DNA from: Candidatus Doudnabacteria bacterium
Lineage (GTDB): Bacteria; Patescibacteriota; JAQUNI01
NCBI GenBank assembly: GCA_041644975.1
Contig: JBAZQX010000004.1
Location: 9,189 to 73,188 of the forward strand
Direction: 5' to 3'
Length of the DNA: 64,000 nucleotides
A program made the translations under genes and the position numbers. Within the stretch, counting starts at the first letter, position 1, and each line of letters opens with the position of its first letter. Positions 41,162 to 60,015 of this stretch are shown here, piece by piece. Below the pieces are notes generated by a model that saw nothing but the letters and a program-made list of their open reading frames with translations, was not told the origin of the DNA and searched no databases.

Positions 41162-41221
41162 GAATCTGTAGAAGACTTTGGTTCAAGTCGGGAGACTTGA
41201 ACCAATAAAAGGAGTAAGAAA

Positions 41222-41752: not shown

Positions 41753-41761
41753 TTTCAATGA

Positions 41762-41791
41762 CTGAAAAATCTAGACTGATTTAAAAATCAG
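41762..41791 (+). terminator. Intrinsic terminator (agactgattt-aaa-aatcagtct + TTTTTTT)
   Basis: 10-bp perfect stem + T-run. Confidence 0.7.
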
Positions 41792-41975
41792 TCTTTTTTT
41801 ATATTTTCGATTTCATAACCCACCCCTACCCTCCCTTATCAGGGAGGGAGTAAAACAATTGCTGAAAAATAATACGTAGTTTATAATAAAGATGAAGATA
41901 AAAATTATCAATGAGATTGCTTCGTCGTCCCTCGGCAAGCTCGGGACTTCTCGCAATGACAGTATAAAATAAACA

Positions 41976-43595: not shown

Positions 43596-43778
43596 ATTTT
43601 TCCGCCCAAGGCGGATCAGCTCTTCGAGTCTGAAGACTCATCAGAGTCTGAACGACCTAGGGCTGAAAATCAATTTGAAAATCCAAATTTTAAATTTTTT
43701 AATTTTAAAACTTTTTTTGTTTTAGAATTTAAAATTAAAGCATTTAAAATTGAATTAAAATTAAGAATTAAAAATTTT
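43596..43778. repeat. AT-rich word-repeat spacer (aattttaaa words) containing a GC-rich palindromic insert ggatcagctcttcgagtctgaagactcatcagagtctgaacgacc
   Basis: The insert (43613-43657) recurs inverted at 61197-61240. Matching aattttaaa spacer at 45531-45662 flanks the other side of the GT39 gene. Confidence 0.7.
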
Positions 43779-45530
43779 ATGTCTAAACTGACTAAAATTC
43801 TCCCCCCTCTCTTAATTATCATAATGGTCTTGATCTCTTTCTTCTCCGTCCGCCAGGATTCCGCGATTATGGACGAGGTCGCCCATATCCCTGCTGGCTA
43901 TTCCTACCTTAAATATCAAGATTACCGCTTAAACCCCGAGCATCCCCCTTTAGCGAAAATGCTGGCTGCTCTTCCTCTCCTTTTCTTGCACCTCCAATTC
44001 CCCTTAAATCATCCCTCTTGGACAACCGATGTGAATGGTCAATGGGAAGCGGGATATCAATTTTTATACCACCTTGGCAATGACGCGGATAAAATACTCC
44101 TCTGGTCGCGCCTGCCGATCATCGCTCTTTTAATTTTGCTGGGGATCTATGTTTGGAAATGGGCGAAAGAACTTCTGGGAGCAAAATGGGCGCTTGCGGT
44201 TCTGTTTTTATATACTTTCTCTCCCACGATCATTGCCCATAGCCACTATGTGACCACTGATTTGGCCGCGACATGCTTTATCTTTATCGCCTTTTATTAT
44301 TTTGTTCATTATTTAAAAAAACCGAGCCTTAAGAATACTCTCTTGGCTGGTCTTGCTCTGGGTTTAGCCGAGGTCGCTAAATTTTCGGCGGTTCTTCTTT
44401 TCCCGTGTTTTGTTCTTCTTGCCCTTGTCTCTCTCCTTTTGAACAGGCCTCCTCAAACCTCGTGGCTCAAGCAAACAAAAAACCATATCGGCAAATTTAT
44501 TCTGATTTGTTTGATTGCGCTCGGAGTAATCCTCATTGTCTATCAACCCGCGGTCTGGGCTTTCAATTTAGAAAAACAACAAGAGTTAATCCGCGGTTCT
44601 ATCGGGCCGGAAAAAATTGAAAATATTGTGCTCGCTATAAGTAAAATCCCAGGCGCCCAAGGCCTTGCTCAATACATCTTGGGTATTGTGATGGTCTTTG
44701 CCCGCGTGGGAGGCGGCAACACCAATTACTTCTTAGGTCAGGTTTCTAATCAAGGGTGGTGGTATTATTTCCCAACCTGTTTTTTTCTAAAAGAAACAAT
44801 TTCGGTCTTAATCTTAACGGGATTAGCTTTGCTTTTTGTGATTCGTAAATTTGCCACCAATCTCGTAAAAGATCGTTCGCGCAAATGGCTTCCTTGGCTT
44901 AGGGAATACGCGCTTTGTCATCTGGCGGAAATCTCAATGGTAGTTTTTATCATTGTTTATGGGGTGGTCAGTATGAAGGGCAAACTGAACTTAGGTGTCC
45001 GCCACATTATGGTCCTTTTCCCCTTTATCTACATTTTAATCATTAAAGAATTTAAACGGCGTACAGCAGAAACCGCCTACAAAAAACTTTTCACAGGAAT
45101 ATTAATTGTTCTCCTTGTTTGGGTTGGCGTGGAAGTCACGATAAATTATCCTTCGTACCTTGCTTATTATAGCGAACTCACTGGCGGCTCAAAGAATGGT
45201 TACAAATTTATCACGGATTCCAATCTGGACTGGGGGCAGGATTTAAGACGTATGGCGGAATGGGTGAACGCTAACCCTGATATCCAAAAGATTAAAGTGG
45301 ATTATTTTGGCGGCGGAGTACCCTCTTATTATCTTGGCGATAAATATCAAGAATGGCATTCGCAGAATGGACCAACAACGGGTTGGATTGCTGTCAGCAC
45401 CAACTATTTTTCTGAAAGTATTTATCGCAAAGATTCCACCCTTGCCACCTCTTATTACTATCTGGAATTAAGAAAGCCCGAAAAAATCTTCGGGCATTCC
45501 ATATTTGTGTATTATATACCAGAAAAGTAA
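43779..45530 (+). CDS. GT-C membrane glycosyltransferase, family 39-like (PMT_2-type)
   Basis: MDEVAHIPAGYSYLK…NPEHPPLAKMLAALPLL, C-terminal SNLDWGQDLRRMAEWV. Paralog of 13374-15269. Confidence 0.65.
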   Translation: MSKLTKILPPLLIIIMVLISFFSVRQDSAIMDEVAHIPAGYSYLKYQDYRLNPEHPPLAKMLAALPLLFLHLQFPLNHPSWTTDVNGQWEAGYQFLYHLGNDADKILLWSRLPIIALLILLGIYVWKWAKELLGAKWALAVLFLYTFSPTIIAHSHYVTTDLAATCFIFIAFYYFVHYLKKPSLKNTLLAGLALGLAEVAKFSAVLLFPCFVLLALVSLLLNRPPQTSWLKQTKNHIGKFILICLIALGVILIVYQPAVWAFNLEKQQELIRGSIGPEKIENIVLAISKIPGAQGLAQYILGIVMVFARVGGGNTNYFLGQVSNQGWWYYFPTCFFLKETISVLILTGLALLFVIRKFATNLVKDRSRKWLPWLREYALCHLAEISMVVFIIVYGVVSMKGKLNLGVRHIMVLFPFIYILIIKEFKRRTAETAYKKLFTGILIVLLVWVGVEVTINYPSYLAYYSELTGGSKNGYKFITDSNLDWGQDLRRMAEWVNANPDIQKIKVDYFGGGVPSYYLGDKYQEWHSQNGPTTGWIAVSTNYFSESIYRKDSTLATSYYYLELRKPEKIFGHSIFVYYIPEK

Positions 45531-45662
45531 ATTTTAAATTCTTAATTTTTAATTTTAAATCAATTTTAAATGCTTGAATTTTAAATTTTAAAACAAAGAA
45601 TAAAAAGTTTTAAAATTAAGGATTTGAAATTTGGATTTGATTTAAAATTTAGAATTTAAAAT

Positions 45663-46715
45663 TTATTTATAATACACCAATCCCTGCACTCTCAAATCAA
45701 TATAGTATTTAATTTCTTTATTATTTTTCCCAATATCCTCTTTAAAAACTAAGGTTAAAGCTTCAAGTTGGTTTTGCAGGCTCTGTTTAGTATCAAAAAA
45801 TATTTGATAACCTTTGTCCGTTTTGATATATAAGTCGCGGGAATCAGAGATCGGCACAATGAATTCTTGGACTTTCAAATCCGTCTTTAAAGATAACAAA
45901 TCCTGCACTTGAAAAAGAAAACGCAAGAAAGAGGGATCTAAAATCTGCTCACGCGGCTCTACTTTTTTAAAAGACTGGTCATAAAGAACGGGTAATCCCT
46001 TTTCCCATACCGTTTCCTCGGGAATTTCCTCGCCAATTCTTCCCTCTGCATCTAAAAAGTAATAAAGAATAGTGGGATTTTCGGGATAGGAGGTTTGAGT
46101 CAAGATGGCTTGCGACTCCTTATCTTTAACTTCCCCGATTTCCTCCCTACTCGTAGAATCACTGGCAAAAGCTTCAGGGGGTAAAAATAAATCCTGCGGC
46201 GCGCCATTTGCCCAAATCGCTTTCGGCTCCCTCTCGGTAATGGTAATCTTTAAAACATCCGGAAATTCTTTTTTAATGTCTATTTTCTCAATCTGGGCAA
46301 AATGGTCATAGATTACGCTACTTAAATGCTTTTTACCGGCAATGATCAGATTTTCTTTGGGAAAAATAAAAGCGCGTCCCTTTAAATTCTCTCGCGCCAA
46401 CTTTTCCACATCTTCACCCTTGACATTAACATTGCCCACCACTACGATCTCCTTGATTTGCCAGAACGGAAAAAAGAATAAAAAATAAACGAGCGAACCT
46501 AACGCAAGCAAAAAAAGAAAAAAGGCAATTTTCCGCTGCAAATGTCCCGAAGACTCGCGGGCGCGAAAACGAGGAGTCGCGAGATAAATCCTGGGGCTCG
46601 CCAGGGTCCGCTTTTTCCTAAAAAACCCGCGCTTCCACTCCACTCTCCTTTTGCGGGATTTTTGTTTATACGGATTTAAGTATAATTTTTTGCGGCTGGG
46701 TTTGTGAGAAAACAC
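45663..46715 (-). CDS. ftsQ: Cell-division protein FtsQ/DivIB-like (TM + POTRA)
   Basis: Basic N-terminus, single TM, POTRA-like QIKEIVVVGNVNVKGEDVEKLA. Confidence 0.55.
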   Translation of the reverse strand: MFSHKPSRKKLYLNPYKQKSRKRRVEWKRGFFRKKRTLASPRIYLATPRFRARESSGHLQRKIAFFLFLLALGSLVYFLFFFPFWQIKEIVVVGNVNVKGEDVEKLARENLKGRAFIFPKENLIIAGKKHLSSVIYDHFAQIEKIDIKKEFPDVLKITITEREPKAIWANGAPQDLFLPPEAFASDSTSREEIGEVKDKESQAILTQTSYPENPTILYYFLDAEGRIGEEIPEETVWEKGLPVLYDQSFKKVEPREQILDPSFLRFLFQVQDLLSLKTDLKVQEFIVPISDSRDLYIKTDKGYQIFFDTKQSLQNQLEALTLVFKEDIGKNNKEIKYYIDLRVQGLVYYK

Positions 46716-46829
46716 TTGACAAAATGCTAAGGTTTATTATATAATATTAATTCGCTCTTTGATGGTACATTCTACATTTAGTTGCGCTTTGAACAGTTAT
46801 AAAAAATCCTAATTATAAGGAGAGACGCT

Positions 46830-47120
46830 ATGTCTTTTAATAACGATATATATGATAGTTTTGGGGATATAATAATACCCCAAGAGAAGAAAAAAGTCGT
46901 AGCAGAAAAATTAGAAGGGATTACACAAGAAATAGAAGAACTCTCTGCTAATTTGGTGCAACTCAACTCTGTGGAATTGTTAAAAGAGATCCTTTCCCTC
47001 CTTAAGCAAGGAAAGCGAGGAGAAGCAGAGGAAACCATTGGAAAAGCATGGACAACTCTGGAACGTGAGTATTATAGTCTCGCGGAAGGATCCTCTCTTA
47101 TCCCTACTGAAAAGAAATAA
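46830..47120 (+). CDS. Hypothetical small protein
   Basis: 96 aa, no motif. Confidence 0.35.
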   Translation: MSFNNDIYDSFGDIIIPQEKKKVVAEKLEGITQEIEELSANLVQLNSVELLKEILSLLKQGKRGEAEETIGKAWTTLEREYYSLAEGSSLIPTEKK

Positions 47121-47477
47121 AAACTATGTAAAATAGCCTCTTTAATAGAAGGGGCTGAGGACGATTTTATAACCCAAGGATTAGATACTAACGTGTCTTT
47201 TTCTTTGGGTGGGGATAGCCATATAAGAACCATTAAACAGGACATGTGGCTCCCTCCAGATAAAAGAGTCTATCCAGTGCTTTTGATGGGATTGATGAAA
47301 GCTACATCCATGCCGCAACCCTAAAAGTTGCGGATTTTTTTATAAAAATTGAAATATGATTTTTTACGATGCAATTTCCCAAACACTTGCTCTGTGATTA
47401 ATTTTCTGCTTTAATATAAACAGGTTTGTTCCTGAACGCACCCTTAATGCACCTTGAATATCTTCAGGAGGTAGAAA

Positions 47478-47753
47478 ATGGCGGAAGGTTTAAATTTAAA
47501 ACTAAGCCCTGTTCAAAGCTTAACAGTAAGATTAATTGCTGGAAAAGAAAATATGACAGGAGAAGAAATAATAACTGTCGCTCTAAACCTATATGAAACC
47601 GTACAGGGTGAGCTAGACTCATCACCTGACCGAGTAGCCTTAGCATTAGTGAAAAACAATGGAGAAGTTTATAAGGAAATAATCCTCCCTAACCATATTC
47701 CAATACTACCCGCTCATACCAATATAATTTCAATACAAAAAACATCATCTTAA
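47478..47753 (+). CDS. Small hypothetical protein, tandem paralog 1
   Basis: SD AGGAGGT. LALVKNNGEVYKEIILPNH parallels LALVSPRFRIRKEIVLPRH of the next gene. Confidence 0.5.
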   Translation: MAEGLNLKLSPVQSLTVRLIAGKENMTGEEIITVALNLYETVQGELDSSPDRVALALVKNNGEVYKEIILPNHIPILPAHTNIISIQKTSS

Positions 47754-47766
47754 AGGAGGTTTAGTA

Positions 47767-48042
47767 ATGTCAGAGTTGAGTATCACATTTAGTAAGAACT
47801 GGAGCGCCGAGATAAAAAGAATGGCTGAAAAAAGGGGAATAGAACCAAAAAACTTGATTTTAGACGCGCTGACTGTACTATCAGTCTTAGAAGAAGAACT
47901 AGCTTCTGGAGAGGGAAAACAAGGTTTAGCTTTAGTAAGCCCCCGTTTCCGAATCAGAAAAGAAATAGTGCTTCCCCGTCATTCCTCTAAACTATTAACA
48001 CAGAATTCGCTTACAATAGGGCCCACGCTCGCCGTAGACTAA
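47767..48042 (+). CDS. Small hypothetical protein, tandem paralog 2
   Basis: SD AAAGGAGG. Paralogous to 47478-47753. Confidence 0.5.
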   Translation: MSELSITFSKNWSAEIKRMAEKRGIEPKNLILDALTVLSVLEEELASGEGKQGLALVSPRFRIRKEIVLPRHSSKLLTQNSLTIGPTLAVD

Positions 48043-48067
48043 AAATCTACGGTTTTTTTTTATTCTA

Positions 48068-48153
48068 CTAGACCCCTCCCCAGCCTCCCGTAGGTCAAGG
48101 GGAGGAAAATTTTCACTCCCCCTTGCCAAGGGGGAGAAAAGAGGGGGTCTTTC
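48068..48153. repeat. RPE-like palindromic element, intergenic copy
   Basis: tagacccctccccagcctcccgtaggtcaaggggaggaaaattttcactcccccttgccaagggggagaaaagagggggtctttc. Confidence 0.8.
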
Positions 48154-49439
48154 TACCTCTTGATCTCTTTGAACCCACAATATTTTTGCAAAACCTTGGG
48201 CACTTCAATAGAACAGTCTTCGCGCTGATAATTTTCCATAATCGCAATTAAAGCCCTGCCAATCGCAATAGCAGTGGAATTGATGGTATGGACAAATTTT
48301 TTATTCCCTTTCTCGTCTTTGTATTTGATATTCAGGCGGCGCGCTTGGAAATCCGTGTCGTGGCTCGCCGAAACTACCTCGCGGTAACAACCCTCTGACG
48401 GCAGCCAAGCTTCCAAGTCAATTTTTTTAGCATTAGGCGCGCCCAGATCGCCGGTTGCGATATTCACTGCTTGATAATGAATTCCCAAGCCCTGCCAAAT
48501 TTCTTCTACGGTTTTGACAATCATTTTATAAACTTGCCACGAATCTTCTTGCGTAGCGAACGCGAACATTTCCAGTTTATCAAATTGATGCCCCCGCAAA
48601 ATTCCTTTTAAATCCTTGCCATAAGCGCCAGCCTCCCGCCGAAAGCAAGACGAAAAACCCGTATAAAGTTTTGGTTTCCCGGGGGCTAGCCCCAAAATCT
48701 CGTCCATATGATACGCTGCAAGCACAACCTCGGCGGTGCCAATCAAATATAATTTTTCTTTTTCATCACCCGTGAGCTCATAAATTTCATTTTTATCCGC
48801 GGGGAAGAAGCCTGTGCCATACATCGCAGCCTCGCGCACGAGCATAGGCGGCAGGATCGGAGTAAAACCTTTTTTAATTAAAATATCCAAAACATATTGT
48901 ATAAGAGCAAATTCCAGGCTCACAAGCTCGTTTTTTAGATACCAAAAACGGGCGCCTGAAACCTGCGCGCCTTTTTCAATATCTATTAAATCCAAAGCCT
49001 CCCCCAATTCATAATGAGATTTGGGTTTAAAATCAAACTTTGATGGCTCTCCCCATTTATGATCCACCGCGTTGCCGGAAGCATCCGGCGCCACTGGCAC
49101 AGAATGATCTGAAAGATTAGGAAATTGATCTAATAAAATTTTGATTTCTGCTTCTTTCTCCTTTAATTTTTCCTTTAACCCTTTTTCAAACTCACTCTTT
49201 TTCTGTATTCTCTGAATCATTTTCTGACGCTCCTTTTCATCTTCAATTTTCACTATTTTACGGGAAAATTCATTCTTAGCTTGTTCGTGTTTATTTTTTA
49301 TACCAATCAGATTCCTCCGTATTTTGTCCAATTCTAAAAATTCATCCACTTTTTCTGATGGCATTGCCTTTAAATGGCGATTTTTAAATTCCGTCCGCCA
49401 GAGATCTGGCTGTTCGCGCAATAATTTTATATCAATCAT
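48153..49439 (-). CDS. serS: Serine--tRNA ligase
   Basis: N-terminal coiled coil, class II motifs (FRRE, GxGxGxxR), 428 aa. Confidence 0.9.
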   Translation of the reverse strand: MIDIKLLREQPDLWRTEFKNRHLKAMPSEKVDEFLELDKIRRNLIGIKNKHEQAKNEFSRKIVKIEDEKERQKMIQRIQKKSEFEKGLKEKLKEKEAEIKILLDQFPNLSDHSVPVAPDASGNAVDHKWGEPSKFDFKPKSHYELGEALDLIDIEKGAQVSGARFWYLKNELVSLEFALIQYVLDILIKKGFTPILPPMLVREAAMYGTGFFPADKNEIYELTGDEKEKLYLIGTAEVVLAAYHMDEILGLAPGKPKLYTGFSSCFRREAGAYGKDLKGILRGHQFDKLEMFAFATQEDSWQVYKMIVKTVEEIWQGLGIHYQAVNIATGDLGAPNAKKIDLEAWLPSEGCYREVVSASHDTDFQARRLNIKYKDEKGNKKFVHTINSTAIAIGRALIAIMENYQREDCSIEVPKVLQKYCGFKEIKR

Positions 49440-49463
49440 AGTTTTATCTTTATAACGTGAATA

Positions 49464-51581
49464 TTAAAGTCCTAAATTTTGAGATATATCTTGCATCGCC
49501 CGAAGGCCGATTTGAATGAATTCTTCCAGCACAAGACCAAAAGATTCGCAGGAAGCAATCACTTCGCGTCTAGCGCCTTGGGCGAAAGATTTTTCTTTAA
49601 ATCTCTTTAAGACAGATTGCGCCGATAAATCGGATAATTTTTTCGATGGCAAAACCAAGGTGGCAGCCACAATCAAACCAGTCAAAGGATCCACGGCATA
49701 AATCGCTTTTTCCATTAAGGTTTTGCGAGGTGCGCCGCATTGATCATTATGCGCCTTGATGCCAGCTAAAATTACGGGATGCACTCCTTCTTGCTCTAAA
49801 ATCCCCGCGGTGGTCGGACCGTGTTTTTCCGGCGTTTCACGATAGTCAAACATCTCCATATCTAGGTCGTGCAGAAGACCAGTAAGCCCCCAGACTTCCT
49901 CATTCTTTTGAAAATGCTTGGCGAGAGCGCGCATTATCGCTTCCGTTGCCAACATATGTTTGCGCGAATTTTCATTCTTTACATATTGGCAAACCAAATC
50001 CCAAGCTTTGGCGCGCGTAATCCCTGACTTAACTGCCTCCTCGTTTTGAGTGGGCGCTTTTGTCGCTGGACAGACCTTCTGCGTATTTAATGGTCTCATT
50101 AGAGGAAAGAACACTGCCTCACGGATGCTCGGAGCGTTGGTTAAAAACATTACCAGACGATCCACCCCCATCCCCCAGCCCGCGATCGGCGGCATTCCGT
50201 ATTCCATCGCCCGCACATAATCTTCATCCATCATATGCGCCTCCGCGTCCCCCGCTTCCCGCATTTCAACCTGTTCCTCAAAACGCCTACGCTGCTCCAA
50301 AGGATCAACTAACTCGGAATAAGCATTGACTAATTCCTGCCCTAAAACCACTAGCTGAAAACGATCCACAATCTTTGGATTCTGATCGTTTCTGCGCGCC
50401 AAGGGCGATAATTCAATGGGATGACCGGTTAGAAAAAGAGGACCCTTAATTTTCGGCCGCGAAACCTTTTTATATAATTGATCCACTAAACCCCCAAAGC
50501 CTAATTTGCCAAGGTCTTCAATTTCAATTTTTTTCTTCTGTATTTCCTTTCTAAGCTTCTCCGCGGTATCAGCCTTGTTAATATCAATGCCGCAATCTTC
50601 CAAAATCAAGCTTCTAAAATTTTTTTTCTGCCAAGGAGGAGTAAAATCTATTTTCTCGCCTTGGTAATCAATTTGCAAGGTTCCGAAAACGCGGTTTAAG
50701 AGATAAACCAACATCTCTTCAGTTTGCGCCATCAAAAATTCATAATTTTTGTAAGCCCAATAAAATTCCAGCATCGTAAAATCTTGAAGATGGGCGGTGT
50801 CCATTCCTTCATTGCGAAAAACCCGCGCCATCTCAAAAACCTTTTCCAAACCGCCCACAATTAAGCGCTTCAAATATGTTTCCGGCGCAATCCTTAAATA
50901 CAAGGGAATCTGCAGGGCTTCGTGCTCTGTAATGAAAGGCCGCGCGAGCGCGCCCGAAGCCTTGGTTTGAAGCACTGGCGTCTCCACCTCCAAAAAACCC
51001 CTCTCTGTTAGAAAATCACGCAGGGCATCGCAGATCTCCGCGCGCTTCCGAAAACGCTCACGCACTTCTGGATGAACAAGCAGATCCAAATAACGTTCCC
51101 GAAATCTGATCTCTTGATTAGAGAGGCCTTTCCATTTTTCCGGCAGAGGACGGATGGATTTAGCGAGAATTTTATAATCGGAAACAAGGAGGGTTCTTTC
51201 CCCTTTTTGGGTGACAAAAACGGTTCCTTGGAGTTCAATAAAGTCGCCAATGTCAAAATTTTTAAAGAATTTGTATTTCTCCGGACCTAAAATGTCTTGT
51301 TTAAGATAGGCTTGGATTCTGCCGCTTTCATCATCAATATGGATAAAGGTAGAGCCGCCGTGTCCGCGAATGCCGCGTATACGCCCCGCGACCACGATCT
51401 CGCCTTTTTCCTTTTCTATGGCTTCAAAATCATCCAGTATCCTCCCTATTGTATGCGTCCGACGCGAAGAATCAGGGTAAGGATTGATTTCGACCTTTAA
51501 AATTTTATTCAATTTTTCTTTGCGATTTTGGATTAAATCTTGAAGCATATATTTTATTATACCTTGAATTACAAAATTCAT
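49464..51581 (-). CDS. lysS: Lysine--tRNA ligase (class II) fused to a C-terminal YqeK-like HD phosphohydrolase domain
   Basis: LysRS core: anticodon-binding OB, FRNEGMDTAHLQDFTMLEFY, GMPPIAGWGMGVDRL. C-terminal 200 aa: HMLATEAIMRALAKHF…GLTGLLHDLD (H…HD motif). Confidence 0.8.
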   Translation of the reverse strand: MNFVIQGIIKYMLQDLIQNRKEKLNKILKVEINPYPDSSRRTHTIGRILDDFEAIEKEKGEIVVAGRIRGIRGHGGSTFIHIDDESGRIQAYLKQDILGPEKYKFFKNFDIGDFIELQGTVFVTQKGERTLLVSDYKILAKSIRPLPEKWKGLSNQEIRFRERYLDLLVHPEVRERFRKRAEICDALRDFLTERGFLEVETPVLQTKASGALARPFITEHEALQIPLYLRIAPETYLKRLIVGGLEKVFEMARVFRNEGMDTAHLQDFTMLEFYWAYKNYEFLMAQTEEMLVYLLNRVFGTLQIDYQGEKIDFTPPWQKKNFRSLILEDCGIDINKADTAEKLRKEIQKKKIEIEDLGKLGFGGLVDQLYKKVSRPKIKGPLFLTGHPIELSPLARRNDQNPKIVDRFQLVVLGQELVNAYSELVDPLEQRRRFEEQVEMREAGDAEAHMMDEDYVRAMEYGMPPIAGWGMGVDRLVMFLTNAPSIREAVFFPLMRPLNTQKVCPATKAPTQNEEAVKSGITRAKAWDLVCQYVKNENSRKHMLATEAIMRALAKHFQKNEEVWGLTGLLHDLDMEMFDYRETPEKHGPTTAGILEQEGVHPVILAGIKAHNDQCGAPRKTLMEKAIYAVDPLTGLIVAATLVLPSKKLSDLSAQSVLKRFKEKSFAQGARREVIASCESFGLVLEEFIQIGLRAMQDISQNLGL

Positions 51582-51819
51582 TTTGGTCTATTAGCGAGGG
51601 AGGCATTTGATGCCGACCGAAGCCCGCCCGCCTCGCCTGAAGCGAAGCTTGTGAGCGGGCAGGCAATCTCCTAAATCTGTATAAATACAGCTCGATGAGA
51701 TTGCGGAGCCTGTCCCGAGCGGAAGCGAAGGATCTGACTTAAAGGGCCCTCCTCGCAATGACGACGCATTTCGCAATTCAAGGTCTTTAATATATTATAT
51801 CAAAAATCATAAATTTCAC

Positions 51820-51855
51820 CAAACAAAAACAGAGACGCAAAATTTCACGTCTCTA
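51820..51855 (-). terminator. Intrinsic terminator after greA (agagacg…cgtctct + T-run on minus strand)
   Basis: 7-bp stem, GTTTTTGTTT on the minus strand. Confidence 0.5.
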
Positions 51856-51880
51856 CGCATAAAATATTCATCATCCCTCC

Positions 51881-52339
51881 CTAAGATATTTCCAAAATTT
51901 TGTATTCTATCTTGCCACCCGGCGTCTCCACCTCTACTGTATCTCCCTTTTTCTTACCAAGGAGCGCCTGACCAATCGGGCTTTCATTAGAAATCTTCCC
52001 CAACGGAGGGTCAGCCTCATTGGAGCCGACAATGGTAAATTCTTTCTCGCTGGTATTATTTTTCACCTTCACGCTGTTTCCCACTTCCACAATATTATGC
52101 TGACCACTTTTATCAATAATAACCGCATTTTTGATCATATTTTCAATCTCTATGATCTTTCCTTCGTTAAAAGCCTGTTCATCCTTTGCGTCTTGATATT
52201 CCGCGTTTTCGGAAAGATCGCCCAATTCCTTGGCTACTTTAATCCGATTGGCAATTTCTCTTCTTTTGACTGTCTTGATAAACTCTAATTTTTCTTTTAA
52301 TTTTTTGAGCCCTTCGGCAGTAATATATTTCTTGGTCAT
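51881..52339 (-). CDS. greA: Transcription elongation factor GreA
   Basis: MTKKYITAEGLKKLKEKLE…ENAEYQDAKDEQ… coiled-coil + FKBP-like C-terminus. Confidence 0.85.
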   Translation of the reverse strand: MTKKYITAEGLKKLKEKLEFIKTVKRREIANRIKVAKELGDLSENAEYQDAKDEQAFNEGKIIEIENMIKNAVIIDKSGQHNIVEVGNSVKVKNNTSEKEFTIVGSNEADPPLGKISNESPIGQALLGKKKGDTVEVETPGGKIEYKILEIS

Positions 52340-52728
52340 ATTTTGTAAGTTTTTTAAAATGCGCTTACGCACTATATAAGCACATTTCTAGAGTTCTCTA
52401 TTTAATTTAATTATCCCCATCATAATAATCCAAGAAAAAGGCGATGTCAAGGGGATAAAAAATTTTAAAATTTAAAAATCAAAAATTAAAATAACAAATC
52501 AAAATGTTAAAATTATTTTGGGAATTCAGAGTTCTCGCCCGCTTATACCTAAGCATAGCGATGGCGAGCGGGCATCCTTTTCACCTTTTTCCAGTGACCA
52601 CCCGGGAGGCGTGGCAAAACCCTATAAAAAACCTCGGTTTTAAAACCATAAATGGTGAATTCTCAAAAAACGTAATTCATTTCAAAATTTTACATTGTCT
52701 CGCTTCGCGAGATCTCGCAAAGCGATGA

Positions 52729-53553
52729 TCATTTTGCATTTTGATTTTTACATTTTACATTATTTACCAGTTCTACCAGATTCATAAGAAGCATCATCAC
52801 AGTCATTGGTCCGACGCCGCCCGGCACAGGCGCCAGAAAAGAAGCTTTTTTCTTCACGCTCGCCGCTTCCACATCCCCTTGAATTTTTCCCGCCCTCCAG
52901 CTCGTACCGGCATCAATCACGACGGCTCCTCTCTTGATCATCGTCCCGCGAATTAAATTGGGTTTACCCACACCCGAAATGATAATATCAGCTTTTTTAA
53001 CTTGAGCGGCTAGAGCTTTTGTATTTTGATCGTAAACCTTTACGCTTGCGCCTAATTTTTGCATTAAACGCGCCGCCGGCTCACCCACTAATTTTCCCGC
53101 TCCCACTACCGCCACCTCGCAACCTTCCACCGCGACCTTATATTCGGCGAGGAGCGCGGCAATTCCTAAAGCCACAGGCGAGACTATGGCACGATTTTTA
53201 AAACCCTCTACGTCCATCTTCTTAGGTATACATTTCAGAACTTGATCTCTATCAATACCCTTAGGCAGGGGCAACTGCACCACTATGCCGTGAGGTTCTT
53301 TTTGTTTAATCGCCAAACGCAATATTTGGCAAATCTTTGGAGCGGGGGAAGAAGCAGGCAGGGTGACTAAGGAAAAGCTGACCCCCAAAGAATGGCAAAT
53401 TTCCTTTTTCCTGCGCACAAAAATTTGGGAGGCTCGATCATGCCCGACCATCAAAACTAAGAGGCGAGGTTTTACAGATAGACCTTTTATCTCCTTCTGA
53501 AGATAACGAAAAAATTTTTGGGCTAGTTTTTTACCATCTAAAATCTGGAACAT
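52729..53553 (-). CDS. folD: Bifunctional methylene-THF dehydrogenase/cyclohydrolase FolD
   Basis: ILDGKKLA…, VQLPLP, GAGKLVGEP, GVGKPNLI. Confidence 0.9.
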   Translation of the reverse strand: MFQILDGKKLAQKFFRYLQKEIKGLSVKPRLLVLMVGHDRASQIFVRRKKEICHSLGVSFSLVTLPASSPAPKICQILRLAIKQKEPHGIVVQLPLPKGIDRDQVLKCIPKKMDVEGFKNRAIVSPVALGIAALLAEYKVAVEGCEVAVVGAGKLVGEPAARLMQKLGASVKVYDQNTKALAAQVKKADIIISGVGKPNLIRGTMIKRGAVVIDAGTSWRAGKIQGDVEAASVKKKASFLAPVPGGVGPMTVMMLLMNLVELVNNVKCKNQNAK

Positions 53554-53629
53554 AATGTTGGGAATCAGGAATAAGGAATTATGAATTAGGAATTATGAAG
53601 CAGGAATTAAATATTTGTCTCTAATTGCT

Positions 53630-53679
53630 CTACTCACTCCTTTTCAAAAATTTCGTAATTTGTAGGACTCCTTATTCCT
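53630..53679 (-). promoter_or_regulatory. Conserved about 50-bp block (rc AGGAATAAGGAGTCCTACAAATTACGAAATTTTTGAAAAGGAGTGAGTAG) upstream of folD; near-identical copy upstream of mreB (58472-58521)
   Basis: Two copies in the same position/orientation relative to two minus-strand operon starts. Contains TTGAAA -35-like hexamer. Confidence 0.5.
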
Positions 53680-53705
53680 TATTCCTGCTTCCTGATTCAT
53701 TCTTC

Positions 53706-55631
53706 CTACTGCCTATTAAAATACCACTCTAACACATTTTTTGCGATAGGTACAGCTGCTGTTTCACCGCCGCCACCGCCCTCGACCAGAATAGTCAGCA
53801 CAATCTTAGGACGGTCATAAGGCGCAAAACCAGTAAACCAAGCATGGGTAGGCTGTCCACTGCCCGCAAATTGCGCGGTGCCTGTTTTTCCCGCTACCGC
53901 CACAGGAAGGCTATTAAGCAAACGGGCAGAACCATCGGTGACAGTTTGGCGCATACCTTGCCGCACCACCTCTAAACTTTTGCTACTAATAAAATCTTTT
54001 CGGATAATCTCAGATGGGATTTCTGTTTCTTTTTTTTCTATCTCATCAATCATCTTGCAGCCCATCTTTGGCTTGTAAAGAATCCCGCCATTCGCAATGG
54101 TAGCAATATAATTAGTAAGCTGCAATGGGCTAACTAAAATATCCCCTTGACCAATACTCACATGATAAGTGTCGCCGATGTACCATTGTTCCCCTTTGAC
54201 TTTTTCTTTCCATGCCGCATCAGGCACGAGACCCGCCGTTTCTCCCGGTAAATCCACGCCAAGAGGGACATTGAAACCGAACTTGCTGGTCCAGGCTTTT
54301 ATTCTATCTATTCCTAAACCCTCAATTCCAATGTCTTCATTCCCTCCGCCTACCGTATAAAAAAACACATTACAAGACTCGGCGATCGCGCGCCTGACAT
54401 CCACCGCGCCGTGGGCTTTCCAGTCCGGGAAATTCCAAACTGTCCCTCCCCAACCTTGGTAAGTGAGACTCCCCGGGCAATTCACCACTTGAGACGGGGT
54501 AATAATTTTCTCTTCTAAAGCGGCGGCGGCGATGAGGGGTTTAATAATGGAACCCGGGGGATATTCGCCGGAAATCGCTCGATTAAACAAAGGCTGATTA
54601 GGATCACGATTCAACTCGTTCAATTTCTCCTCGGAAATCCCTTGGGTAAAAAGGTTATTATCATAAAAAGGGAAACTGACCAGCGCTAAAATGCGTCCAT
54701 TCTCCGGATCCATAGCCACAACGGCTGCTCTTTCTGTTTTTGTTTGGGAAAGCATTGCCTTAACTTCCTCGGCAATCTTTTTTTCTAATTCTAGGTCCAA
54801 AGAGAGCTGTAAACTGCGACCCGCCTCGGGACTTTCTCGCCCTATGATCTTGGCAATTTGCCCGCGCGAATTTACCTCCGCAATCTTGCGACCATTTTTA
54901 CCTTTTAAGACTTGTTCGTAGGAATATTCTACACCTTGTTTGCCAATATAATCGGTTAAAAAGTAACCCTGTTCTTTATTTGCGGCGTATTCTTCCGGCG
55001 AAATCCTGCCGGTATAACCTATAATGTGGGCAATGAGTTCCCCGCCTAGATATTCCCGCACGGGAGAACTAAGAAGACTAATCCCTGGCAGAGAAGATAA
55101 TTTTGCGTCCAGAATTAACGCCTGTTCGCGTCCTAAATTACGCACCAAGATTTCCGGTTCATAAGAATGAGGATCCGCCTCCCTAAACGCGATTTCAATC
55201 TCTGTCGCGTCTTTCCCTAAAATCTGGGCTAAATTTTCAATAAAACTTTTTCTCTCAGGAGGAGGAGGCAAATCCGCAGGAATGAACACAACCTCGAAAT
55301 TGGGAATGTTGCGCACCAATAAGTTTCCCTTCTGATCATAAATAACGCCCCGAGGAGCCATCAGGCTTAAAGTGCGAATCCGATTGCTTTCCGCTTCCCT
55401 GGTGTAAGACTCTCCAGCTAAAATCTGCAGGGAAAAAATACGCCAACCCAAGATCAAAAAACAAATAATCACTACTAATCTTAAAAGACTCAAGCGCCCT
55501 AAGCGGAAGCGCAACTCCGCCGGCCTTAAATCATCCTCTTGCGCAAAACCTTCCTGCCCCTCCCAATCCTTCTCCGCTAAAAACTTTTCGGAAATCTTAA
55601 ATTCGGATTTTGAAAAATTAAAAAAATTCAT
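53706..55631 (-). CDS. mrdA: Penicillin-binding protein 2 (peptidoglycan D,D-transpeptidase, elongasome)
   Basis: SIIKP (SxxK), ESCN (SxN), AGKTGTA (KTG). Immediately downstream of mreBCD. Confidence 0.85.
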   Translation of the reverse strand: MNFFNFSKSEFKISEKFLAEKDWEGQEGFAQEDDLRPAELRFRLGRLSLLRLVVIICFLILGWRIFSLQILAGESYTREAESNRIRTLSLMAPRGVIYDQKGNLLVRNIPNFEVVFIPADLPPPPERKSFIENLAQILGKDATEIEIAFREADPHSYEPEILVRNLGREQALILDAKLSSLPGISLLSSPVREYLGGELIAHIIGYTGRISPEEYAANKEQGYFLTDYIGKQGVEYSYEQVLKGKNGRKIAEVNSRGQIAKIIGRESPEAGRSLQLSLDLELEKKIAEEVKAMLSQTKTERAAVVAMDPENGRILALVSFPFYDNNLFTQGISEEKLNELNRDPNQPLFNRAISGEYPPGSIIKPLIAAAALEEKIITPSQVVNCPGSLTYQGWGGTVWNFPDWKAHGAVDVRRAIAESCNVFFYTVGGGNEDIGIEGLGIDRIKAWTSKFGFNVPLGVDLPGETAGLVPDAAWKEKVKGEQWYIGDTYHVSIGQGDILVSPLQLTNYIATIANGGILYKPKMGCKMIDEIEKKETEIPSEIIRKDFISSKSLEVVRQGMRQTVTDGSARLLNSLPVAVAGKTGTAQFAGSGQPTHAWFTGFAPYDRPKIVLTILVEGGGGGETAAVPIAKNVLEWYFNRQ

Positions 55632-55695
55632 TAAAGTATAAGCCCGCTCGGCAAACGCTCTTAGCTTCCAGAGCGTGTGCGGCCCGCCCCCCTTT

Positions 55696-56220
55696 TTATT
55701 TAATTTGTTCTTCTGTCTTTAATAATACAGAATAACAATATCTTAATATCCTGTAGCCCAATACTGTCACCACTAAATTATAAAATATTGTGGGCAAAAC
55801 TAGATATTTTAAATCATAAAATAAATCTACCTGAAGATCGCTTAAACGCATCCAGCTAAAAAGTTTTACCAAAATAATTAGGGCTAAATTGTAAATTATA
55901 CTTCCTAAAATAGTCACGAGAATAATTGCGCTCACATCCCTCTCTCTGAATAACTTAAGAGATAATATTCTAATCAAGAAGATAACTAAAAGAAAACTTA
56001 GAGTTACCACCCCGAAAGGAAGACTAGAACTAAGGTCTAAAAAAAGCAAAAATGGGAAATACCATTTCAAGGTTGTCTTGACTCCGAGGGTGAGAAAACA
56101 AATTAAGAAACCAATCAAAATAAAGTTTGGCCTTGCTAACCCAATACTTAAATGAGGTCCCCAAACCAACTCTAGAAAAAATAAAAATAATAAAATCAGC
56201 AAGAAAAAAAATTTATTCAT
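55696..56220 (-). CDS. mreD: Rod shape-determining protein MreD-like (polytopic small membrane protein)
   Basis: Position after mreC, 5 TM, 174 aa. Confidence 0.55.
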   Translation of the reverse strand: MNKFFFLLILLFLFFLELVWGPHLSIGLARPNFILIGFLICFLTLGVKTTLKWYFPFLLFLDLSSSLPFGVVTLSFLLVIFLIRILSLKLFRERDVSAIILVTILGSIIYNLALIILVKLFSWMRLSDLQVDLFYDLKYLVLPTIFYNLVVTVLGYRILRYCYSVLLKTEEQIK

Positions 56221-56452
56221 AATAGTTAAGCTTGAGGCAAGATTCTCTATTCACTTTGAATTATAAAATACATTTTTTTGAGGACTTCGGGCATCCCCGC
56301 CCGAAGTTTCAGCCAAGAGCAAGATGCCCGTGGCCCTCAAAATCTATAAATCACTCCATTTCGTAATTAAAGGCTATTTAAAAAGCACTAATCACGTCTA
56401 TCCCCTTAAAACCTTTAAATCTGAAGGATTGATGGTTCGGCTTCGCTCACCA

Positions 56453-57325
56453 TCAATCCTGGAGCGTAGTCGAAGGATTGATATCCGTCACTACCAGCAC
56501 CTTTTCTAATTTTGAAAAGTTCACATAAGACCGCACTTGGGCTTTTTGAAAGAGTTCACCGCTATTACTTTCCACCTTCACAATTTCACCAATCACTAAC
56601 CCTTTGGGCAATTCGCCAGAAAGCCCGGAGGTAATGACTGTATCCCCTACCTGCACAATCTCGTTTTGGGGGATCATCTCCATTGTTAACCCCAAACCAT
56701 GCTGACCATAAATATTACCGCTTGCTCGCGAATCAATAATTAAAGCGTTCACCACACTATTTTGATCAGTAATTAATAAAACAGTCGCTGTTTTGGAAAA
56801 AACTTCAATTACCTTGCCGACCAAAAATCCTTCCCCAAAAATCACGGGCGCGCCGACCCTGACATTATCTTGCGCGCCGCGATTGATTTTTAGACTCTGA
56901 ATGAGATTATCCGGATTCCGCCCAACGACATCAGCGTCAATTCCCCTCACTCCTCCCTTCTCTTTAAATTTTAATTGATCACGTAAAAACGCGTTTTCCT
57001 TCTCTATTTCTTTCAACCTCACATTTTCCGCAATTAAACGATAGTTCTCTCCACTTAAATCTTGGTTTTCCCGCGCGAGATCTCGGATCGCCGTCAAGAG
57101 ATGAAAAAAATTATCAATCTTATTTACTGTTTTAAAAGCAGCTCTTTCCACGGGCGCGGTAACAACAAAAATCGCATTTTCTACAGGACGCAAAACTTTC
57201 ACATAATGCAAAAAAATGAGCAGTGTAATCACGCCCATTGCTAATAAAATTATACCCGACTTAGAACGAAAAAAACGAGGCATAAAATATAAACTCAAAA
57301 CGTAAAATTCAAAATTTAAAACCAC
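56453..57325 (-). CDS. mreC: Rod shape-determining protein MreC
   Basis: N-terminal TM, coiled coil, beta-rich C-terminal domain with G-rich motifs. Gene order mreB-mreC-mreD. Confidence 0.75.
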   Translation of the reverse strand: MVLNFEFYVLSLYFMPRFFRSKSGIILLAMGVITLLIFLHYVKVLRPVENAIFVVTAPVERAAFKTVNKIDNFFHLLTAIRDLARENQDLSGENYRLIAENVRLKEIEKENAFLRDQLKFKEKGGVRGIDADVVGRNPDNLIQSLKINRGAQDNVRVGAPVIFGEGFLVGKVIEVFSKTATVLLITDQNSVVNALIIDSRASGNIYGQHGLGLTMEMIPQNEIVQVGDTVITSGLSGELPKGLVIGEIVKVESNSGELFQKAQVRSYVNFSKLEKVLVVTDINPSTTLQD

Positions 57326-57388
57326 AACTTAAAACTAAAAACTTTTGAGATTTCATTAATTTTGAGATTTGAGTTTTAAGCTTTGAAT

Positions 57389-58429: not shown

Positions 58430-58471
58430 ATTTTAGAATTAGGAATCGGGAATTAAGTGTTTATCTCCAAT

Positions 58472-58521
58472 TTCTACTCACTCCTTTTTAAGAATTTCGT
58501 AATTTGTAGGACTCCTTATTC
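58472..58521 (-). promoter_or_regulatory. Second copy of the conserved upstream block (upstream of mreB)
   Basis: ctactcactcctttttaagaatttcgtaatttgtaggactccttattcct, 2 mismatches vs the folD copy. Confidence 0.5.
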
Positions 58522-58554
58522 CTGATTCATTATTCATTATTCCTCCCTCCCGAC

Positions 58555-60000: not shown

Positions 60001-60015
60001 ATGGATGCAAAAAAA

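What the first reader, a model, noticed from the sequence alone, without database searches (positions are those of the whole stretch)
49464..50100. LysRS fused to a YqeK-like HD phosphohydrolase domain
The lysS ORF continues about 200 aa past the class II catalytic core into an HD domain (HMLATEAIMRALAKHF…GLTGLLHDLD), resembling the YqeK/Ap4A-hydrolase family. LysRS is the principal cellular source of Ap4A, so the fusion would couple synthesis and hydrolysis of the alarmone in one polypeptide. The architecture is not one recognised by eye as described.
Basis: partly seen in the sequence, partly recalled or inferred. Interest (0 to 1): 0.65.

Follow-up and report, generated by a model that had tools for sequence, protein, structure and literature searches.

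The report
LysRS fused to uncharacterised HD hydrolase
The lysyl-tRNA synthetase gene here really does carry an extra C-terminal metal-dependent phosphohydrolase (HD) domain; the fusion recurs in bins assigned to several phyla and has not been studied, and it may destroy the Ap4A that the synthetase makes, but it is not a true YqeK enzyme.

Summary
A single uninterrupted ORF (49464..51581, minus strand; likely start 51548) encodes a canonical class II LysRS (residues 12-498), a low-confidence linker of about 21 residues, and a 186-residue HD domain (520-705). It is not an assembly artefact. An identical protein is deposited from a Candidatus Doudnabacteria MAG, and 144 LysRS-HD fusions were recovered from bins labelled Patescibacteria, Planctomycetota and Spirochaetota. 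Relatives also carry split (8-nt overlap) or one-gene-separated versions at the same greA-lysS-HD-serS locus.

The "YqeK-like" interpretation is only partly right. The domain has the same six-ligand binuclear signature as YqeK (H542, H571-D572, H587, H611, D631), and YqeK structures are its best profile matches in the PDB. But no family member approaches the YqeK model cutoff (at most 20.5 bits against 70.15), YqeK's phosphate-binding residues are replaced, and other HDIG families match as well or better. It belongs to a large uncharacterised HDIG family that is mostly stand-alone, about 185 aa.

The most likely function is hydrolysis of Ap4A/Ap4N made by LysRS (about 0.4). The main rival is a phosphoesterase acting on tRNA or RNA ends (about 0.25). 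No paper describing the fusion was found. Interest is moderate.

The parts
49464..51581 (-). lysS::HD fusion ORF (705 aa maximal; probable start ATG at 51546..51548, giving 694 aa; stop TAA at 49464..49466)
   Evidence: It is 100% identical to P0121, 'lysine--tRNA ligase [Candidatus Doudnabacteria bacterium]'.
51165..51395 (-). LysRS anticodon-binding OB-fold domain (residues 63-139)
   Evidence: Pfam PF01336, E 6.3e-16.
50097..51119 (-). Class II (D/K/N) aminoacyl-tRNA synthetase catalytic core (residues 155-495)
   Evidence: Pfam PF00152, E 5.5e-81. NCBIfam lysS TIGR00499 at 560.9 bits and PRK00484 at 625.5 bits, both above their cutoffs.
50025..50087 (-). Interdomain linker NTQKVCPATKAPTQNEEAVKS (residues 499-519)
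   Evidence: Part of the linker, residues 507-514 in 705-aa numbering (496-503 of the 694-aa model), has pLDDT below 50 in the full-length AlphaFold model. Linker length varies from 7 to 182 residues among fusions. The DNA has no stop, no N and is in frame.
49467..50024 (-). C-terminal HD (HDIG-type) metallophosphohydrolase domain (residues 520-705), co-linear with stand-alone ~185-aa homologues
   Evidence: Pfam HD and NCBIfam HDIG. Stand-alone homologues are 56-69% identical over the whole domain. The AlphaFold model is all-helical with pLDDT 96.5 and pTM 0.93.
49956..49958 (-). H542, first metal-ligand histidine (equivalent to YqeK H21)
   Evidence: H in 75 of 116 fused and 120 of 120 stand-alone forms; Q in a 41-member subgroup (those with source names are labelled Planctomycetota).
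49860..49871 (-). H571-D572-L-D574, the 'HDxD' motif (H571 and D572 equivalent to YqeK H50 and D51; D574 invariant)
   Evidence: H571 and D574 are invariant in 236 sequences; D572 is N in the same 41-member subgroup.
49821..49823 (-). H587, first of two extra histidines (putative second-metal ligand, inferred equivalent of YqeK H83)
   Evidence: Invariant in fused forms; H in 80 and Q in 40 stand-alone forms. The equivalence to H83 is inferred from order and spacing and is not covered by the alignment.
49749..49751 (-). H611 (equivalent to YqeK H109)
   Evidence: Invariant; aligned to H109 of 2o08.
49689..49691 (-). D631 (equivalent to YqeK D127)
   Evidence: D or E in all sequences; aligned to D127 of 2o08.
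49566..49649 (-). Conserved basic patch P645-x-K647-K ... K659-R660-F-K ... F666-A667 ... R672, a candidate phosphate or polyanion binding site
   Evidence: P645, F666, A667 and R672 are near-invariant and K647, K659 and R660 are highly conserved, including in the ligand-degenerate subgroup. The 640-680 segment containing this patch has pI 9.9 in a domain that is otherwise neutral to acidic. Its role is inferred.
51881..52372 (-). greA, conserved upstream neighbour
   Evidence: Pfam GreA_GreB_N and GreA_GreB. Same position in L001, L004, L005, L007 and L009.
48153..49439 (-). serS, downstream neighbour starting 24 nt after the lysS::HD stop
   Evidence: Pfam Seryl_tRNA_N and tRNA-synt_2b. Same position in L001 and L009.

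Best explanation
This is a genuine bifunctional gene. A complete class IIb lysyl-tRNA synthetase is tethered by a flexible linker of about 21 residues to a C-terminal HD-domain metallophosphohydrolase. That domain belongs to a large, uncharacterised HDIG-type family that usually occurs as a stand-alone protein of about 185 aa. The window's copy retains a full binuclear-type ligand set (H542; H571-D572; H587; H611; D631), so it is predicted to be catalytically active. These points are shown: the architecture, the conservation, the ligand set and the recurrent linkage to lysS. The following is inferred: the domain most likely hydrolyses a phosphoanhydride side-product of the LysRS active site, namely Ap4A and related Ap4N, and possibly Np4 caps on RNA. 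LysRS makes these when lysyl-adenylate reacts with ATP or NTP instead of tRNA. Tethering the hydrolase to the main producer would keep the dinucleotide from accumulating or would set its steady-state level. Rel/SpoT enzymes do something similar by combining a (p)ppGpp synthetase with an HD hydrolase. The substrate-contact residues differ from YqeK, so if the substrate is Ap4A it must be bound in a different way.
For: Architecture and authenticity. P0121 is 100% identical, and five orthologues (68-82% identity) have the same layout. All 116 long hits carry the domain. All 144 fused proteins have a LysRS partner, never another aaRS, with the HD always at the extreme C-terminus. Recurrent linkage: split genes with an 8-nt overlap in L001; lysS-ydjM-HD in L004 and L005; lysS immediately upstream in 15 of 80 GTDB loci; fused and stand-alone forms interleaved on a rough HD tree, with at least 32 state changes. 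Catalytic competence: the six ligand positions are conserved with the same order as YqeK's H21, H50, D51, H83, H109 and D127 and an identical H-to-HD spacing of 29. Relation to Ap4A hydrolases: the top five PDB profile hits are all YqeK-type Ap4A hydrolases (E 3.8e-6 to 4.6e-3), while other HD families score above 0.08. The domain is mildly acidic with one conserved basic patch, which suits a small-molecule enzyme better than a general RNA binder. Other fusions of the family involve nucleotide-cleaning or phosphatase domains (HD+Ham1, LysRS+HAD+HD). That LysRS is the principal Ap4A source is established knowledge (PMC13627108).
Against: The domain is not a YqeK family member. There is no TIGR00488 hit for the window protein, and other members score at most 20.5 bits against a cutoff of 70.15. 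RNase Y HD (34 of 40 members, 2.7e-9), the HD half of PRK12703 (30 of 40, 3.8e-10) and TIGR00295 (29 of 40) match better than YqeK (22 of 40, 1.3e-5). YqeK's phosphate binders R18, K54 and R133 correspond to S/L, conserved E576 and I/V. Foldseek finds no close structure: the best TM is about 0.5 and the top hit is the non-catalytic GlyRS beta HD domain. Some fusions insert tRNA-directed domains (tRNA_bind, B3_4, DUF2000) between LysRS and HD. In Bacillota the stand-alone gene sits beside rnr and smpB. From general knowledge, Bacillota usually already have YqeK, which would argue for a different role there; this was not tested. Close relatives with the same locus lack the domain entirely (L009). 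No biochemical data exist.
Confidence: 0.4

Rival explanations
1. The HD domain is a phosphoesterase that acts on tRNA or RNA. It might heal 2',3'-cyclic phosphate or 3'-phosphate ends so that tRNA(Lys) can be charged, as the HD domain of bacterial CCA-adding enzymes is thought to do, or it might act as a nuclease in the manner of the RNase Y HD domain. It would be recruited to its substrate by LysRS.
For: By coverage and E-value, the closest NCBIfam models are the HD half of PRK12703, which is fused to another tRNA enzyme (the tRNA Cm56 methyltransferase), and the RNase Y HD domain. Fusion variants include LysRS+tRNA_bind+B3_4+HD, LysRS+B3_4+HD and LysRS+DUF2000+HD. The stand-alone gene lies next to rnr (15 loci) and smpB (16 loci) in Bacillota. 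The top Foldseek hit is the tRNA-acceptor-arm-binding HD domain of GlyRS beta (PMC8464048). A conserved basic patch is present.
Against: The partner is always LysRS and never another aaRS, which a general tRNA-end repair enzyme would not predict. The domain is net acidic to neutral (median pI 5.6 to 6.2). The Bacillota neighbourhood may only reflect shared ancestry of related genomes. The inserted tRNA-related domains could be independent additions. All similarity scores to RNase Y and PRK12703 are far below the family cutoffs.
Confidence: 0.25
2. The HD domain hydrolyses some other nucleotide unrelated to Ap4A, for example non-canonical or surplus (d)NTPs, (p)ppGpp or (p)ppApp, or cyclic dinucleotides. 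In that case its linkage to lysS reflects co-regulation with translation and not substrate channelling.
For: Most family members are stand-alone and unlinked to lysS (65 of 80 GTDB loci). An HD+Ham1 (ITPase) fusion exists. Weak structural matches include PgpH, small alarmone hydrolases and dNTP triphosphohydrolases. The binuclear ligand pattern is also typical of cyclic-dinucleotide phosphodiesterases.
Against: Repeated, independent physical fusion specifically to LysRS in bins from several phyla is hard to explain without a functional link to LysRS chemistry. PDB profile hits rank YqeK above those families.
Confidence: 0.15
3. The domain is mainly non-catalytic. It would be a tRNA-binding or ligand-sensing module that modulates LysRS, as the degenerate HD domain of bacterial GlyRS beta does.
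For: 41 of 116 fused proteins have lost two ligands together (H542Q and D572N), yet they keep the rest of the domain, including the basic patch, under strong conservation. The GlyRS beta HD domain is the top structural hit, and it is non-catalytic but affects aminoacylation.
Against: The window protein and about two thirds of the fusions retain all six ligands. All 120 stand-alone relatives keep H542 and HD. Stand-alone forms have no partner to regulate in cis.
Confidence: 0.1
4. The fusion is an artefact, caused by a sequencing or assembly frameshift or a lost stop codon joining two adjacent genes.
For: Relatives do have lysS and the HD gene as adjacent, overlapping separate genes (L001), so an indel could in principle join them.
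Against: The ORF has a clean in-frame linker of about 21 codons with no N. The identical protein is present in an independent public record. Five orthologues at 68-82% identity and more than 100 more distant proteins from different samples have the same fused layout with linkers of various lengths.
Confidence: 0.02

Closest known systems
YqeK (COG1713, TIGR00488), the symmetrical Ap4A/Ap4N hydrolase and Np4-decapping enzyme of Firmicutes (PDB 2o08, 2ogi, 3ccg, 8wmy, 8jja)
   Same: Both are small all-helical HD domains of about 185-195 aa. They share the same six-ligand H..HD..H..H..D binuclear pattern with an identical H-to-HD spacing, and a similar N-terminal helix. YqeK structures are the best PDB profile hits.
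   Different: Scores are far below the family cutoff and TM is only about 0.5. The motif is 'HDxDxE' where YqeK has 'HDxxK'. The R18, K54 and R133 phosphate contacts are not conserved. The HD-to-third-His spacing is shorter (15 against 32). The genomic partner is lysS, where YqeK's is nadD.
HD half of PRK12703 (tRNA Cm56 methyltransferase-HD fusion) and the TIGR00295 archaeal HD proteins
   Same: These are the NCBIfam models that align over nearly the whole domain (about 150 residues) with the best E-values (3.8e-10 and 2.9e-8). PRK12703 is likewise a tRNA-enzyme-HD fusion.
   Different: Scores (about 30-40 bits) are far below the family cutoffs (434 and 172 bits). Both are themselves uncharacterised, so they give no function.
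HD domain of the bacterial heterotetrameric GlyRS beta subunit (PDB 7eiv, 7yse)
   Same: It is the only previously described HD domain inside an aminoacyl-tRNA synthetase, and it is the top Foldseek hit (E 9.8e-3, TM 0.52).
   Different: The GlyRS HD is catalytically dead (HD replaced by SK), is an internal domain, and contacts the tRNA acceptor arm (PMC8464048). The window's HD keeps all metal ligands, is a C-terminal tethered module, and has free-living homologues.
Rel/SpoT (RSH) bifunctional enzymes and LysX (MprF-LysRS)
   Same: These are functional analogies. RSH combines an alarmone synthetase with an HD hydrolase in one chain. LysX fuses LysRS to an enzyme that consumes a LysRS product.
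   Different: There is no sequence relationship beyond the HD superfamily. The analogy rests on general knowledge and was not tested here.

Membership tests
Class II lysyl-tRNA synthetase (TIGR00499 / PRK00484) | Score above the curated cutoff over the full model, with an N-terminal OB anticodon-binding domain and a class II core | tested here: met
   TIGR00499 scores 560.9 bits (cutoff 427.6) and PRK00484 scores 625.5 bits (cutoff 468), over residues 14-497. PF01336 and PF00152 are both present.
HD superfamily (PF01966) / HDIG (TIGR00277) | H...HD...D metal-binding motif and a score above the gathering cutoff | tested here: met
   PF01966 scores 27.8 to 30.1 bits (cutoff 22). HDIG scores 29.2 to 29.4 bits for the isolated tail (cutoff 27.6) but 26.7 bits, just below the cutoff, in the full-length protein. 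All 40 aligned family members match HDIG. The model has an all-helical HD fold with pLDDT 96.5.
YqeK Ap4A hydrolase (TIGR00488 / COG1713) | Score at or above the curated cutoff of the YqeK equivalog model | tested here: not met
   The window protein gives no hit at E<=1. Among 40 family members, 22 give weak hits (best E 1.3e-5). Among the members scanned individually, the highest score seen was 20.5 bits against a cutoff of 70.15.
YqeK Ap4A hydrolase (TIGR00488 / COG1713) | Binuclear metal site formed by H21, H50, D51, H83, H109 and D127 | tested here: met
   H542, H571, D572, H611 and D631 align to H21, H50, D51, H109 and D127 and are conserved. H587 is assigned to H83 by order and spacing only. 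Ligand identities come from PMC13627108.
YqeK Ap4A hydrolase (TIGR00488 / COG1713) | Tetraphosphate-binding residues R18, K54 (HDxxK) and R133 | tested here: not met
   The aligned positions are S539 (S or L in the family) and E576 (conserved E or D). R133 (D127+6) corresponds by spacing to I637 (I or V). An invariant D574 gives 'HDxD'.
YqeK Ap4A hydrolase (TIGR00488 / COG1713) | Close structural superposition with YqeK structures (RMSD 0.7-1.0 A within the family) | tested here: not met
YqeK Ap4A hydrolase (TIGR00488 / COG1713) | Symmetrical hydrolysis of Ap4A to 2 ADP | not testable with these tools
   This needs an enzyme assay.
GlyRS-beta-type aaRS HD domain | Degenerate HD dyad and an internal position contacting the tRNA acceptor arm | tested here: not met
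   The window keeps H571-D572 and all other ligands and the domain is C-terminal behind a flexible linker. The GlyRS HD has S393-K394 in place of HD (PMC8464048).

The most novel reading that the evidence does not exclude
LysRS-HD is a self-contained Ap4A/Ap4N synthetase-hydrolase, the dinucleotide counterpart of Rel/SpoT. Its HD domain would then found a new family of Ap4A hydrolases (or Np4-decapping enzymes) distinct from ApaH, YqeK, Nudix and HIT enzymes. That family would serve lineages such as Patescibacteria and Planctomycetota, where Ap4A turnover has, as far as I know, not been described. An even more unusual alternative is that the HD heals damaged tRNA(Lys) ends before charging.
Probability: 0.35. 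Interest if true: 0.75.

Novelty: new variant of a known kind. Interest (0 to 1): 0.55.

Why it matters
Ap4A is an old and still poorly understood alarmone. LysRS is its main source, and only a few hydrolase families are known (ApaH, YqeK, Nudix, HIT-type). A conserved physical fusion of LysRS to an apparently active binuclear HD hydrolase is a classic Rosetta-stone clue. It assigns a testable function to a large uncharacterised HD family (5,618 cluster representatives at E<=0.001), and it suggests how small-genome bacteria might control Ap4N or Np4 caps. If instead the domain acts on tRNA, it would be a new type of cis-acting tRNA quality-control module on a synthetase. Either way the experiment is simple: one recombinant protein and a substrate panel.

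Tried and rejected
- **Frameshift or assembly artefact:** rejected, because of the clean in-frame linker and many independent orthologues.
- **YqeK membership:** rejected.
- **GTDB locus scan:** the scan with the diverse alignment A1 failed for lack of a conserved stretch. It was repeated with the tighter A3, which biases the 80 loci towards close relatives.
- **Model coordinates and PAE:** The full-length model has pTM 0.71 and a disordered linker, so no fixed docking is claimed.
- **Rfam scan of 47000-53000:** no T-box or other leader RNA upstream of lysS.
- **Motif scan of window ORFs:** no Nudix, HIT or ApaH signatures and no second member of this HD family. Absence in 64 kb says little about the genome. 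The other 'HD' motif hit (18061..20295) is a Toprim protein.
- **Literature:** seven searches found no description of a LysRS-HD fusion. The original YqeK family paper (PMC7186459) is not held.
- **Cluster name look-up:** gave almost no taxonomic names.
- **Third homology search:** I ran no further search on building a YqeK profile for hhalign, because the NCBIfam and PDB profile results already answered the membership question.
Full report
**1. The observation**

The window contains one uninterrupted ORF on the minus strand at 49464..51581, 705 aa. The junction region (residues 488-530) has no stop codon and no ambiguous base.

Pfam places an OB anticodon-binding domain at residues 63-139, the class II D/K/N catalytic core at 155-495 (E 5.5e-81) and an HD domain at 541-617, which scores 27.8 to 30.1 bits against a gathering score of 22. 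NCBIfam identifies the N-terminal 497 residues as lysS: TIGR00499 scores 560.9 bits (cutoff 427.6) and PRK00484 scores 625.5 bits (cutoff 468). The isolated tail passes the HDIG model at 29.2 bits (cutoff 27.6).

Orthologue alignment and the identical public protein P0121 (694 aa) indicate that the real start is ATG 51548 and not 51581. I keep the 705-aa numbering below.

**2. Not an artefact, and not rare**

Searching with the full-length protein returns a 100% identical protein labelled "lysine--tRNA ligase [Candidatus Doudnabacteria bacterium]". It also returns five orthologues at 68-82% identity with the same length, and about 110 more proteins of 680-750 aa at 42-53% identity. Those that carry names are labelled Patescibacteria, Planctomycetota, Spirochaetota or Peribacteraceae.

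- All 116 hits longer than 550 aa carry the same C-terminal domain.
- In a pooled set of 461 domain-bearing proteins, 144 are fused to an aaRS. In every case the partner scores as LysRS (0.39-2.2 bits per residue, 5th percentile 0.75, against about 0.2 for an AspRS/AsnRS-like control).
- The HD domain is always within 10 residues of the C-terminus, and linkers range from 7 to 182 residues.

A sequencing frameshift cannot explain this.

**3. The same locus in relatives**

The closest relatives of the tail (56-69% identity) are stand-alone 185-aa proteins.

- **L001:** the gene order is greA - lysS - HD - serS, exactly as in the window. The HD gene is separate and overlaps the end of lysS by 8 nt (ATGAATAG).
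- **L004 and L005:** a ydjM-like gene sits between lysS and the HD gene, again with an 8-nt overlap into the HD gene.
- **L009:** lysS is 76% identical to the window's, in a folD - greA - lysS - serS - ftsQ arrangement with no HD domain at all.
- **GTDB species representatives:** the 80 best loci include 15 with lysS ending directly upstream of the HD gene, most of them Patescibacteria-type bins by record title.

On a rough neighbour-joining tree of 294 HD domains, fused and stand-alone forms interleave, with at least 32 state changes by parsimony. The window's clade nests among stand-alone Patescibacteria-type clades. The tree is crude, and some "stand-alone" entries may be fragments. Even so, the overall pattern is repeated fusion and fission with persistent linkage to lysS, which is the signature of a functional connection.

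**4. What the HD domain is**

An exhaustive profile search finds 5,618 cluster representatives at E<=0.001 and 560 at E<=1e-30. Most of the best 150 are stand-alone proteins of 180-200 aa. They include cultured Bacillota (Neomoorella, Desulfovirgula, Desulfallas) as well as Dehalococcoidia, WOR-3, Zixibacteria and Thermosipho.

The domain models with very high confidence as an all-helical fold (pLDDT 96.5, pTM 0.93). Column-by-column conservation shows the following:

| Position (705-aa numbering) | Conservation |
|---|---|
| H542 | H in 75 of 116 fused and all 120 stand-alone forms; Q in 41 fused |
| H571, D574, H611 | invariant |
| D572 | D in 75 of 116 fused and all 120 stand-alone forms; N in the same 41 fused |
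| H587 | invariant in fused forms; H in 80 and Q in 40 stand-alone forms |
| D631 | D or E in all |
| G568, G635 | invariant |
| A639, P645, F666, A667, R672 | near-invariant |
| K647, K659, R660 | highly conserved basic positions (part of the 645-672 patch) |

The window's protein has every ligand.

YqeK's published binuclear ligands are H21, H50, D51, H83, H109 and D127 (PMC13627108). The HD-superfamily review singles out YqeK among phosphatases for having two extra histidines between HD and D (PMC8177086). The window domain has the same order of ligands, an identical H-to-HD spacing (29), and similar H-to-H (24 against 26) and H-to-D (20 against 18) spacings.

**5. Is it YqeK?**

- **For:** a profile of the family against all PDB sequences ranks five YqeK-type Ap4A hydrolases first: 8jja at 3.8e-6, 2ogi at 1.8e-4, 8wmy at 1.8e-3, 2o08 at 2e-3 and 3ccg at 4.6e-3. 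Other HD families score above 0.08.
- **Against, model score:** the window protein gives no TIGR00488 hit at E<=1. Members scanned individually reach at most 20.5 bits where 70.15 is required.
- **Against, other families match better:** across 40 members, RNase Y HD (34 members, 2.7e-9), the HD half of PRK12703, a tRNA Cm56 methyltransferase-HD fusion (30 members, 3.8e-10), and TIGR00295 (29 members, 2.9e-8) match more often and better than YqeK (22 members, 1.3e-5). PRK12703 and TIGR00295 align over nearly the whole domain, whereas YqeK aligns mainly over the N-terminal helix and H..HD segment.
- **Against, structure:** Foldseek finds nothing at E<=1e-3. The best matches (TM about 0.5) are the GlyRS beta HD domain, YqeK and PgpH.
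- **Against, substrate contacts:** using the 2o08 alignment and the published contacts, R18 aligns with S or L and K54 (HDxxK) with a conserved acidic residue in an HDxDxE motif. R133 corresponds by spacing to I or V.

My conclusion is that the domain has the same catalytic-metal design as YqeK but belongs to a different, uncharacterised HDIG family with a different substrate-contact surface.

**6. Context clues to function**

Other architectures containing this HD family are:

- LysRS + tRNA_bind + B3_4 + HD (P0364)
- LysRS + B3_4 + HD (P0388)
- LysRS + HAD + HD (P0268)
- LysRS + DUF2000 + HD (P0157)
- AMMECR1 + HD (P0295)
- HD + Ham1/ITPase (P0330)
- beta-propeller + HD (P0257)

In Bacillota the stand-alone gene recurrently neighbours RNase R (15 loci), SmpB (16 loci), a membrane pyrophosphatase (13 loci) and enolase (8 loci). 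These loci come from related genomes, so they are not independent observations.

The domain is mildly acidic overall (median pI 5.6 stand-alone, 6.2 fused), and the 640-680 segment holding the conserved basic patch has pI 9.9. The full-length model has confident domains but a disordered linker and pTM 0.71, so it looks tethered and not rigidly docked.

**7. Mechanism**

*Shown:* a complete LysRS and a ligand-complete binuclear-type HD domain are made as one polypeptide, and the lysS-HD association recurs across lineages in fused, overlapping and adjacent forms.

*Inferred:* the HD domain is an active metal-dependent phosphohydrolase whose substrate is connected to LysRS chemistry. I rank Ap4A/Ap4N, and possibly Np4-cap, hydrolysis first, at about 0.4, for these reasons:

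- The partner is exclusively LysRS, the main cellular Ap4A synthase.
- The metal-site design matches the only dinuclear HD phosphatase known, which is an Ap4A hydrolase.
- YqeK structures are the best solved relatives.
- The domain looks like a small-molecule enzyme.
- Nucleotide-cleaning fusions exist.

A phosphoesterase acting on tRNA or RNA ends is second, at about 0.25. It is supported by the PRK12703 and RNase Y similarities, the tRNA-directed inserted domains and the rnr-smpB neighbourhood. Another nucleotide substrate (about 0.15) and a mainly non-catalytic role (about 0.1) follow. The non-catalytic role is more plausible for the Q/N-substituted subgroup than for this protein. An artefact is at about 0.02.

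**8. Novelty**

The architecture is visible in public databases, where it is annotated only as "lysine--tRNA ligase". Seven full-text searches and targeted reading of recent YqeK, Ap4A and GlyRS-HD papers found no description of it.

I class it as a new variant of a known kind: an aaRS with an appended accessory enzyme domain, from an uncharacterised branch of the HD superfamily. Interest is moderate to good. It is not startling to a specialist, but it gives a clean and cheap experimental route into Ap4A turnover, or a new tRNA quality-control activity, in poorly studied phyla.

Noticed in passing
P0174, P0176, P0227, P0240 and 37 others (related proteins, not in the window); columns equivalent to window residues 542 and 572: A subgroup of 41 of the 116 fused LysRS-HD proteins has H542->Q and D572->N together, one ligand from each presumed metal site. 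It keeps H571, D574, H587, H611, E631 and the basic patch conserved. Members with source names are labelled Planctomycetota. This suggests an altered metal site or a non-catalytic role, not decay.
   Followed up: partly
P0364 (1072 aa), P0388 (973 aa), P0268 (918 aa), P0157 (868 aa): Longer LysRS variants insert extra domains between the synthetase and the terminal HD: tRNA_bind + B3_4 (the PheRS-editing fold), B3_4 alone, a HAD phosphatase, or DUF2000 (PF09391). P0388 is labelled as coming from a Promethearchaeota (Asgard) MAG.
   Followed up: partly
L001:3731-5008: The lysS next to the split HD gene encodes only 425 aa. NCBIfam matches it in two stretches, so part of the region between class II motifs 2 and 3 seems to be missing. 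It still scores above the lysS cutoff.
   Followed up: partly
L004:3499-4008 and L005:3502-4008: A YdjM-family (PF04307) membrane protein gene of about 168 aa is inserted between lysS and the HD gene, and it overlaps the HD start by 8 nt, the same overlap length as lysS-HD in L001.
   Followed up: partly
L032-L087 (Bacillota loci from the GTDB scan): In Clostridia-type genomes the stand-alone HD gene lies next to RNase R (rnr) and smpB, often with an H+-pyrophosphatase and enolase nearby. That is a ribosome-rescue and RNA-decay neighbourhood.
   Followed up: partly
window 47478..47753 (+) and 47767..48042 (+); also 46830..47120 (+): Two tandem 91-aa ORFs are paralogues (30% identity over 69 residues, E 1e-8) with no Pfam match. 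Together with a third small ORF they occupy a stretch of about 1.4 kb on the opposite strand between serS and the ftsQ-like gene. In the close relative L009, serS is followed directly by the POTRA/FtsQ-type gene.
   Followed up: partly
window 51546..51620: The maximal ORF starts at ATG 51581, but orthologues and the NCBI record start at ATG 51548. That ATG is preceded by AAGG and a TATAAT-like hexamer (GGTATAATAAAATATATG). The 300-nt greA-lysS spacer has no Rfam match.
   Followed up: partly
window 18061..20295 (+): A 744-aa ORF flagged by an 'FFHDVG' motif is not an HD protein. It carries a Toprim domain (PF13155, residues 198-288), and the rest is unannotated.
   Followed up: partly
window 1..64000: ARAGORN finds only one tRNA gene (tRNA-Gln, 23310..23384, minus strand) in the whole 64-kb window. 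GC content drops to about 33-35% in 6-18 kb, compared with about 40-46% elsewhere.
   Followed up: no
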